From: Squalus acanthias
Lineage: Eukaryota
Length of the DNA stretch: 64,000 bases
Direction: 5' to 3'
Assembly (NCBI GenBank): GCA_030390025.1
Contig: JASTWF010000037.1
Location: 1,922,001-1,986,000 of the forward strand
The notes under the pieces were generated by a model. That model was given only the letters and a program-made list of their open reading frames with translations. It did no database searches and was not told the origin of the DNA. Positions 1,263 to 1,925 of the stretch are shown here, in pieces. A program made the translations under genes and the position numbers. Each line of letters begins with the position of its first letter. Within the stretch, counting starts at the first letter, position 1.

Positions 1263-1925
1263 TTTTTTTTTGAGTTCTGTCATTTTTATTTTAAAATTTC
1301 AACATTTTATTTACAGTTAATGACATTACAGAGCTCAAGTCTCAGCTCTTTGTACAAAGTCACAAGCCATCATTGCCTACAAGGCAGGGAACTCAGTCTC
1401 TACAAGTTGGTGATGTGATCTCCAAGCTCCCCGATCGTCTTCATTTGTTCATCCAGATAGTGGGTCTCCAGGAATTCACACAGATGAGGGTCGGCGCTCC
1501 CAGTGGAGAGTTTGTGCAGATCCAGCAGACTCTGGTTGACATTCTTCTCCATCCGCAGAGCTCTCTGCATCGCCGAGCGGAGCCTCCCGCTCTCCCCGAC
1601 AAAGAAATGAACTGTAAAGGAACTTAAAATAAATTTTAAAACATATCAAATTAAAGTAAAATCACACTGGCCGAGGTGATGATGCACTCCAGTTCCCGTG
1701 GGGCCCACCGGTCTCGGAAGGCCTCAAGTGTGCTGGCGGACACCGCGTGCTCCATCTCCAGGGCCACCCGGGCGCGAACATAGCCGCGGAAGAGAGGCAG
1801 GCAATCGGGCCGAACGACCCCCTCGACCGCCCGCTGCCTGGACCTGTTTATGGCCACTTTGGCCAGGCCCAGGAGCAGTCCTACGAGGAGGTCCCCTGAC
1901 CTGCCCGCTCCCCTCCGCTCGAACC
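1263..1925 (-). mobile_element. Tx1-type LINE 3' end with a ferritin-derived segment in its 3' region, plus poly(A) tail
   Basis: ORF2 C-terminus GRSGDLLVGLLLGLAKVAINRSRQRAVEG...LEAFRDRWAPRELECII, stop at 1651. Followed by a T-rich 3'UTR, the ferritin segment 1573-1400, AATAAA and an A-run (T9 at 1263-1271 on +). Confidence 0.75.
1400..1573 (-). pseudogene. FTH1: Processed ferritin heavy-chain fragment
   Basis: Minus-strand translation [57 protein letters not shown] aligns by eye to vertebrate ferritin H ([57 protein letters not shown]). No intron at the usual DPH|LC exon 3/4 junction. Confidence 0.9.

What the first reader, a model, noticed from the sequence alone, without database searches (positions are those of the whole stretch)
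1263..1925. Tx1 LINE 3' end fused to a spliced ferritin heavy-chain fragment: candidate chimeric, mobile ferritin-tailed retroelement
Seen: on the minus strand a Tx1 ORF2 C-terminus (stop 1651) and T-rich UTR run with no intervening poly(A) into 57 codons of ferritin H. The fragment lacks the intron normally at DPH|LC, ends in TAG, and is followed by AATAAA and poly(A). The same ferritin 3' module, including the same premature TAG and the same post-TAG divergence, recurs at 24121-24261 with its own TSD and a different tail. Inference: a Tx1 master element captured host ferritin mRNA (template switch or nested retrocopy) as its 3' end and polyadenylation signal, and then kept transposing. This would scatter ferritin fragments genome-wide. 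Both copies lie antisense just upstream of type A ZP3 promoters.
Basis: partly seen in the sequence, partly recalled or inferred. Interest (0 to 1): 0.75.

Follow-up and report, generated by a model that had tools for sequence, protein, structure and literature searches.

The report
Shark LINE with captured ferritin tail
In a shark genome, the end of a jumping gene (a LINE) is joined directly to a spliced piece of a ferritin message and its poly(A) signal; the same tail occurs at a second insertion nearby, so this is likely a mobile family that took over a host gene's end, as known from fly telomere elements.

Summary
On the minus strand an L1/Tx1-type ORF2 end (stop 1653-1651) and its 76-base UTR run, with no poly(A), into 57 ferritin H codons (1573-1403), TAG, a 3' module, two AATAAA and A9. 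Ferritin genes in three public shark DNA runs have an intron at 1484/1483 and continue upstream of 1574, so this copy is spliced and cut in mid-exon. The tail recurs at 24121-24261 (138 of 141 identical) with a 14-bp target-site duplication and a double poly(A). Public contigs show the tail and the junction-side UTR as high-depth repeats, with variants on both sides of the junction that are common in one organism and nearly absent in another, which fits a family that kept amplifying. No listed contig bridges the junction by 31 letters, this locus has no target-site duplication, and no genome was held, so copy number, full-length carriers and origin were not shown here. Likeliest origin: read-through of a LINE sitting in exon 3 of one of the many ovary-expressed ferritin genes. 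Precedent: TART-A/nxf2 and L1 3' transduction.

The parts
1575..1929 (-). 5'-truncated L1/Tx1-type LINE: last ~90 codons of ORF2 (stop 1653-1651) and a 76-base T-rich 3' UTR with a G-rich end; no poly(A) before the ferritin piece
   Evidence: 74 relatives at E<=0.001; 4 of 19 scanned carry zf-RVT or RVT_1 matches; other family members run on unlike the window behind 1918 (table 7); the 1919-1929 extension is my reading of a 7-base match
1484..1574 (-). 3' part of ferritin H exon 3, starting in mid-exon
   Evidence: ordinary ferritin contigs of X7 leave the window at 1571/1574 and continue in coding frame (table 7); protein alignment starts at 1573/1570
1394..1483 (-). 5' part of the last ferritin exon, spliced directly to exon 3; TAG at 1402-1400 in place of a Lys codon, then two more matching codons
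   Evidence: intron loose ends at 1484 in X1, X5, X7; alignment to P0002
1298..1393 (-). 3' module shared with the second copy, with AATAAA at 1311-1306; no similarity to the missing ~21-24 ferritin residues; likely the ordinary ferritin 3' UTR joined by an internal deletion (inferred)
   Evidence: 275-498 of 500 shuffles reach the observed score for five ferritin tails; depth pattern in X7
1263..1297 (-). terminal stretch with second AATAAA (1290-1285) and A9 (1271-1263)
   Evidence: a related but shorter end followed by an A-run in X16 contig 9 (tables 7, 8)
24121..24261 (-). second, more truncated copy: 18 ferritin-matching codons incl. the same TAG, and the 3' module
   Evidence: 138 of 141 identical to copy 1; tblastn
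24078..24120 (-). double tail of copy 2: A10, a 24-base piece found nowhere else in the window, second A-run; likely flank carried over from an intermediate source copy
24064..24077 (.). target-site duplication of copy 2 (other copy 24262-24275); the duplicated bases belong to a SINE-like repeat that has three more copies in the window
24285..24554 (-). separate 270-base T-rich insert with AATAAA (24295-24290) and its own 10-bp duplication (24275-24284 / 24555-24564), between copy 2 and the promoter
1969..4095 (+). ZP3-like gene unit, 'type A' promoter; its paralogue starts at 24554 (92% identical); four other units have a different promoter
   Evidence: ZP-N domain, ZP3 structures as only PDB matches, alignment, self-BLAST

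Best explanation
A LINE end is fused to a spliced ferritin exon 3/4 piece with its poly(A) signal, and this is likely one truncated copy of a mobile family that arose when a Tx1-type LINE, probably lacking a strong poly(A) signal of its own, sat in exon 3 of a ferritin gene and was transcribed through to that gene's end. Steps. Shown: the fusion, the lost intron, the mid-exon junction, the TAG and break, a second insertion with its own duplication. Inferred: (1) a LINE inserted in sense orientation in exon 3 of one of the many ovary-expressed ferritin genes; (2) read-through RNA was spliced at intron 3 and polyadenylated at the ferritin signal; (3) a retrotransposed copy of that RNA became a master element, with the TAG and the loss of the last ~21-24 codons fixed in it; (4) target-primed reverse transcription from the poly(A) tail then gave copies cut at different 5' points: LINE end plus tail (copy 1) or tail only (copy 2); (5) subfamilies kept amplifying after two related organisms split. 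The tail likely serves as the element's 3' end, not as a protein.
For: Two window copies share TAG and module at 138/141 while their ZP3 units differ at 124 of 2146 positions (P about 0.04 for so few differences). Copy 2 has 5' truncation, double poly(A) and a 14-bp duplication. Run X16 holds an ungapped contig over 1289-1541 with 5 other letters and a different flank after its A-run. In X16 the ferritin depth is one contig that splits into two variants (46.1 and 24.2) at 1511, one reaching 1585, and depth continues over 1573-1634. Summed depth at 1615 in the UTR is 29-85 times the median depth of the listed long contigs (not a copy number). Variants 1318A, 1542C and 1615C have depth 7728/1710/724 in X1 and 7365/1683/1350 in X5 but 12/63/0 in X7, which has its own UTR variants (1631, 1640). 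One X1 contig joins ferritin (1505) to the LINE UTR (1634). X5 lists no A>T change at all, with depth 6776 in the TAG bin. For read-through: the UTR shares a 10-base word with another Tx1-type UTR in the window, which has no AATAAA/ATTAAA in the ~200 bases examined after its ORF end; sharks have 155-179 annotated ferritin copies with an ovary-specific cluster (10.1101/2024.09.09.611499, section 6 read).
Against: No listed contig bridges the junction with 31 letters on both sides (32 pieces listed, 14,484 not shown); the X16 path crosses it by 11 letters and is my reconstruction from table columns; the X1 joint has only 29 letters on its short side. No duplication encloses copy 1. The fifth difference in the X16 contig is not listed and that run has one A>T place, so its TAG is not shown directly. 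X16 is only guessed to be RNA. Organisms A and B differ from the window at 1967 and elsewhere, so they are relatives or other paralogues, not this locus itself. No source locus with the intron was seen; template jumping gives the same product. Two independent insertions within ~400 bases of paralogous promoters are very unlikely at random (about 1e-5 to 1e-4 per promoter) and this is unexplained.
Confidence: 0.55

Rival explanations
1. Same mobile family, other origin: reverse transcription began on a ferritin mRNA and jumped to the 3' end of a LINE RNA, or a 5'-truncated ferritin retrocopy landed exactly at the end of an active LINE.
For: The product is the same as seen. Ferritin mRNA from an ovary-specific cluster would be abundant where the LINE is active. 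Template jumping is named as a source of 5' extensions for SINEU mobilised by Tx1 elements (PMC4494074, passages).
Against: Needs a jump onto a full-length LINE RNA, or a landing within a few bases of a master's end, to give an active element; read-through needs only one insertion in any of >100 genes. No duplication flanks the ferritin piece alone at locus 1.
Confidence: 0.3
2. No mobile chimera: both pieces are ordinary retrocopies of one deleted ferritin paralogue, one of which landed at a LINE remnant; the high depth reflects the ferritin gene family and a LINE subfamily separately.
For: Depth over exon 3 (up to 77,000-88,000 in X7) far exceeds that over the UTR (about 900-1700), so most ferritin-matching contigs are not the chimera. 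No bridging contig is listed. The X5 joint 1621-1686 has a 47-letter side that could stop exactly at 1575.
Against: Co-distribution of variants on both sides of the junction across runs; continuous X16 depth from tail into UTR with no other ferritin contigs over 1294-1510; the X1 ferritin-to-UTR joint.
Confidence: 0.12
3. Copy 2 is not a new insertion but was derived from copy 1 by duplication of the type A ZP3 unit followed by deletion or conversion.
For: Both lie antisense at nearly the same distance from paralogous promoters, which chance does not explain.
Against: Copy 2 sits inside a 14-bp duplication of SINE-like sequence absent at locus 1, has another tail and flank, and keeps the common letters at 24251-24252 where copy 1 has private changes.
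Confidence: 0.04

Closest known systems
Drosophila TART-A with captured nxf2 fragment, and other gene-capturing telomeric non-LTR families (PMC7785250, PMC13534243; passages read)
   Same: A non-LTR element carries a host coding fragment in its 3' UTR and kept transposing; transduction is the proposed route; captured pieces are 140-235 bp (here about 180 bp coding plus about 130 bp of 3' end).
   Different: There the genes are mostly piRNA-pathway genes and piRNA targeting was measured; the piece is internal to the UTR. Here the host is a vertebrate, the piece spans a splice junction, appears to supply the terminal poly(A) signal, and comes from a multigene iron-storage family. No small-RNA evidence here.
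L1 3' transduction / exon shuffling (Moran 1999, Pickeral 2000, Goodier 2000; seen only as citations in PMC7785250, otherwise recalled)
   Same: LINE 3' end followed by downstream host sequence and a host poly(A) signal; 5'-truncated 'orphan' copies holding only the tail; double poly(A) at copy 2.
   Different: Usually limited to the few offspring of one source (recalled); here the tail seems fixed in subfamilies of two organisms.
Tx1-clade LINEs (Tx1L, Keno, Kibi, Koshi, Tx1-Mar; PMC4494074 passages)
   Same: ORF2 C-terminus of the L1/Tx1 type; many members prefer multicopy targets.
   Different: No ferritin target or ferritin tail came up in the searches run; a shared TAG and break argue for one capture, not repeated targeting of ferritin genes.
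Processed pseudogenes of ferritin (recalled)
   Same: Intron loss, 5' truncation, poly(A), duplication at copy 2.
   Different: Both copies share a stop and a break that none of the 16 fetched ferritin proteins show, and copy 1 is fused to a LINE end.

Membership tests
Tx1 clade | Reverse-transcriptase phylogeny and APE-type endonuclease in ORF2 | not testable with these tools
   Only ~90 C-terminal residues are in the window; no genome held
Tx1 clade | ORF2 C-terminus homologous to LINE polyproteins | tested here: met
   4 of 19 relatives scanned match zf-RVT or RVT_1, one at the Pfam cut-off; 0 of 3; the window piece itself has no Pfam match
Tx1 clade | Target-sequence preference | tested here: inconclusive
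   Two sites only; no shared target word; copy 2 lies in a SINE-like repeat and the X16 flank also matches that repeat type by eye
3' transduction product | LINE 3' end followed directly by host sequence, host poly(A) signal and tail | tested here: met
3' transduction product | One target-site duplication enclosing LINE and transduced part | tested here: not met
   No direct repeat above 9 bp between 1150-1310 and 1440-2050, none at both ends; old insertion or lost flank possible
3' transduction product | Source locus with the LINE upstream of the unspliced host sequence | not testable with these tools
   no genome; no shark DNA found in metagenome or viral collections
Gene-capturing non-LTR family (TART-A type) | Captured piece present in many copies of the element | tested here: inconclusive
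   Strong indirect support but no listed contig bridging the junction by 31 letters
Gene-capturing non-LTR family (TART-A type) | Element-derived piRNAs that target the host gene | not testable with these tools
   no small-RNA data
Ordinary processed pseudogene | Intron lost and poly(A) added | tested here: met
Ordinary processed pseudogene | Own duplication at the ends of the mRNA-derived piece | tested here: inconclusive
   Met for copy 2, not for copy 1

The most novel reading that the evidence does not exclude
The ferritin tail is an adaptation: it gives the LINE the 3' end of an abundant oocyte mRNA, ties silencing of the element to self-silencing of the ovary ferritin cluster, and the family inserts by preference beside oocyte-active promoters such as ZP3, where three antisense insertions sit within about 400 bases of two paralogous TATA boxes.
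Probability: 0.12. Interest if true: 0.82.

Novelty: new variant of a known kind. Interest (0 to 1): 0.56.

Why it matters
It would be a vertebrate LINE family whose working 3' end is a spliced host mRNA end, a case of gene capture otherwise documented mainly in fly telomeric elements. It offers a test of whether a borrowed poly(A) signal or 3' UTR raises LINE fitness in oocytes, and it means that some annotated 'ferritin copies' in shark genomes may be element tails. No paper on such a family came up in the searches run (open-licence library only; Repbase was not searchable, so it may already be catalogued there).

Tried and rejected
Pattern scans found nothing in metagenome contigs (0) or viral contigs (0). 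A search with the antisense open frame over tail and junction (1295-1624) gave 3 candidates and no hit. None of the 16 of 44 short ferritin hits that I fetched ends at the TAG position. The post-TAG sequence is not a diverged ferritin C-terminus at protein level. No RNA holder was listed on record; X16 is a guess, so expression is not claimed. No run covered 1170-1262; a hole proves nothing. Repeated targeting of ferritin genes by a site-specific Tx1 was considered and ranked low because the copies share one TAG and one break. Transcription of copy 1 from the ZP3 promoter as the source of copy 2 was rejected because tails, flanks and letters 1431-1432 differ. Only 4 of the 20 listed runs could be laid. 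Supplements of the bioRxiv preprint were not seen and might list ferritin copy structures.

Full report
Setting. The window is a tandem array of six ZP3-like gene units among repeats (self-BLAST; ZP-N domain; the only two PDB matches of an exon are ZP3). The best ferritin matches are shark proteins, so the host is very likely a shark.

Observation. On the minus strand an open frame ends at TAA 1653-1651. Its last 91 residues have no Pfam match but have 74 relatives at E<=0.001; 4 of 19 that I scanned match zf-RVT or RVT_1, and three others scanned earlier match nothing. So it is a LINE ORF2 end; the clade name Tx1 is recalled from the motif, not tested. A 76-base UTR follows, without an A-run, and ferritin begins at 1574: ordinary ferritin contigs in run X7 leave the window at 1571/1574 and go on in coding frame (table 7), and protein alignments start at 1573/1570 for six of eight shark ferritins (1594 for the other two). 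Contigs of X1, X5 and X7 leave at 1484 into a GT-initiated intron, which the window lacks. After 57 codons comes TAG in place of Lys, two matching codons, then sequence with no likeness to the missing C-terminus (275-498 of 500 shuffles reach the score), two AATAAA and A9. No target-site duplication encloses this copy.

Second copy. 24121-24261 matches at 138 of 141 bases with the same TAG. It has A10, a unique 24-base piece, a second A-run and a 14-bp duplication of SINE-like sequence (5 of 300 random pairs reach 14 bp). The two ZP3 units differ at 124 of 2146 aligned positions, more than the tails do (P about 0.04). These marks fit an independent retrotransposition from an intermediate source copy rather than duplication of locus 1.

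Is it a family? One call on public contigs (4 of 20 listed runs; three guessed or unlabelled DNA runs from organisms A, A, B and one guessed RNA run of A). Summed depth is 0 over 1170-1262, 4,000-50,000 over the 3' module, about 1,000-1,600 over the UTR bin 1604-1634 and 24-322 over the promoter bins 1945-2037. The tool warns that this is no copy number; relative to the median of the listed long contigs, depth at 1615 is 85, 50 and 29 times higher and at 1431 384, 44 and 41 times. Three variants (1318A in the tail, 1542C in exon 3, 1615C in the UTR) are deep in both runs of organism A (7728/1710/724 and 7365/1683/1350) and in X16, and nearly absent in organism B (12/63/0), which has UTR variants of its own (1631, 1640). 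Falling depth from the 3' end inward is what 5'-truncated copies of a young subfamily would give. In X16 one ungapped contig covers 1289-1541 with 5 differences and another flank after its A-run; the depth arithmetic shows it splitting into two variants at 1511, one reaching 1585, with depth continuing into the UTR (predicted 155.6, observed 153.3). One X1 contig joins 1505 to 1634. Against: none of the 32 listed pieces bridges the junction by 31 letters (14,484 not shown), the X1 joint has 29 letters on one side, 66 variant rows and 875 loose ends were not shown, and much ferritin depth comes from ordinary genes (X7: 45,000-77,000 over 1449-1572 but 1,251 at 1431). That same contrast, with 43,000-50,000 over 1325-1386, suggests the post-TAG module is the normal ferritin 3' UTR joined by a deletion; I could not test it. 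An X5 contig appears to run from 1888 to 1980 and X7 has depth at 1922-1967, so the LINE-promoter junction seems to be shared with both organisms and older than their split.

Mechanism. I rank read-through first: a LINE in exon 3 of a ferritin gene, transcribed to the gene's poly(A) site and spliced, yields exactly this RNA. Sharks offer many such genes: 155 and 179 annotated light- and heavy-chain copies, mostly in three clusters, one ovary-specific, in the Greenland shark (10.1101/2024.09.09.611499; passages and section 6 read). Another Tx1-type end in the window shares a 10-base UTR word and has no AATAAA or ATTAAA in the 200 bases examined, which fits a weak native signal, on one example. 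Template jumping or a nested retrocopy gives the same product and stays open. Family real: about 0.85 in all; read-through origin 0.55, jump or nesting 0.3.

Unexplained. Both copies, and a third 270-base T-rich insert with a 10-bp duplication, lie antisense just upstream of the two type A promoters and not of the four others. A local hot spot in oocyte chromatin is my guess.

Known systems. Closest is TART-A with nxf2 in its 3' UTR and the nine capture events in fly telomeric elements (PMC7785250, PMC13534243; passages only), and L1 3' transduction (citations only). Tx1 target preference is from PMC4494074 (passages); PMC3747384 (passages) added only clade background. The searches (listings only, apart from the papers named) showed no report of a ferritin-tailed LINE; Repbase could not be searched.

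e1-7805769 (same genome, another piece) describes a 6.4-kb Tx1 with a spliced ferritin end inside one duplication and over a hundred copies. It is an unchecked AI note; I could not see its sequence or counts and do not count it as evidence. It agrees with my reading, which was written before it was seen, and means this finding is probably another copy of a family already flagged.

Verdict. Real feature; likely a truncated copy of a ferritin-tailed LINE family; new variant of a known kind; interest 0.56.

Noticed in passing
window 24285-24554: 270-base T-rich insert with AATAAA and a 10-bp duplication directly between copy 2 and the promoter; third antisense insertion at a type A ZP3 promoter; no other copy in the window
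   Followed up: partly
window 1969-4095, 15144-, 24554-, 37125-, 48796-, 58566-: Six tandem ZP3-like units at 89-96% identity with two unrelated promoter types (2 type A, 4 type B)
   Followed up: partly
window 4187-6865 (-): 892-residue uninterrupted endonuclease/reverse-transcriptase frame, CR1-like by recall, inserted in the first ZP3 unit only
   Followed up: no
window 14131-14410, 36133-, 46118-, 57573- (+): 3' ends of another Tx1-type subfamily, 73-78% like the ORF2 end at locus 1, duplicated with the type B units, with no ferritin tail
   Followed up: partly
window 32176-33273 (+) and 343-794: Reverse transcriptase plus GIY-YIG-like frames, Penelope-like by recall, with a 77% related piece at the window start
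   Followed up: no
run X16 contig 9, beyond window 1289: After its A-run the contig continues in a few bases that match, by eye, the same SINE-like repeat into which copy 2 is inserted; may hint at a preference for that abundant repeat or be chance
   Followed up: no
window 12841-13413, 31174-32184, 33651-34634, 44892-45397, 54095-56073; 23130-23790: Long 67-bp and 49-bp minisatellite arrays
   Followed up: no
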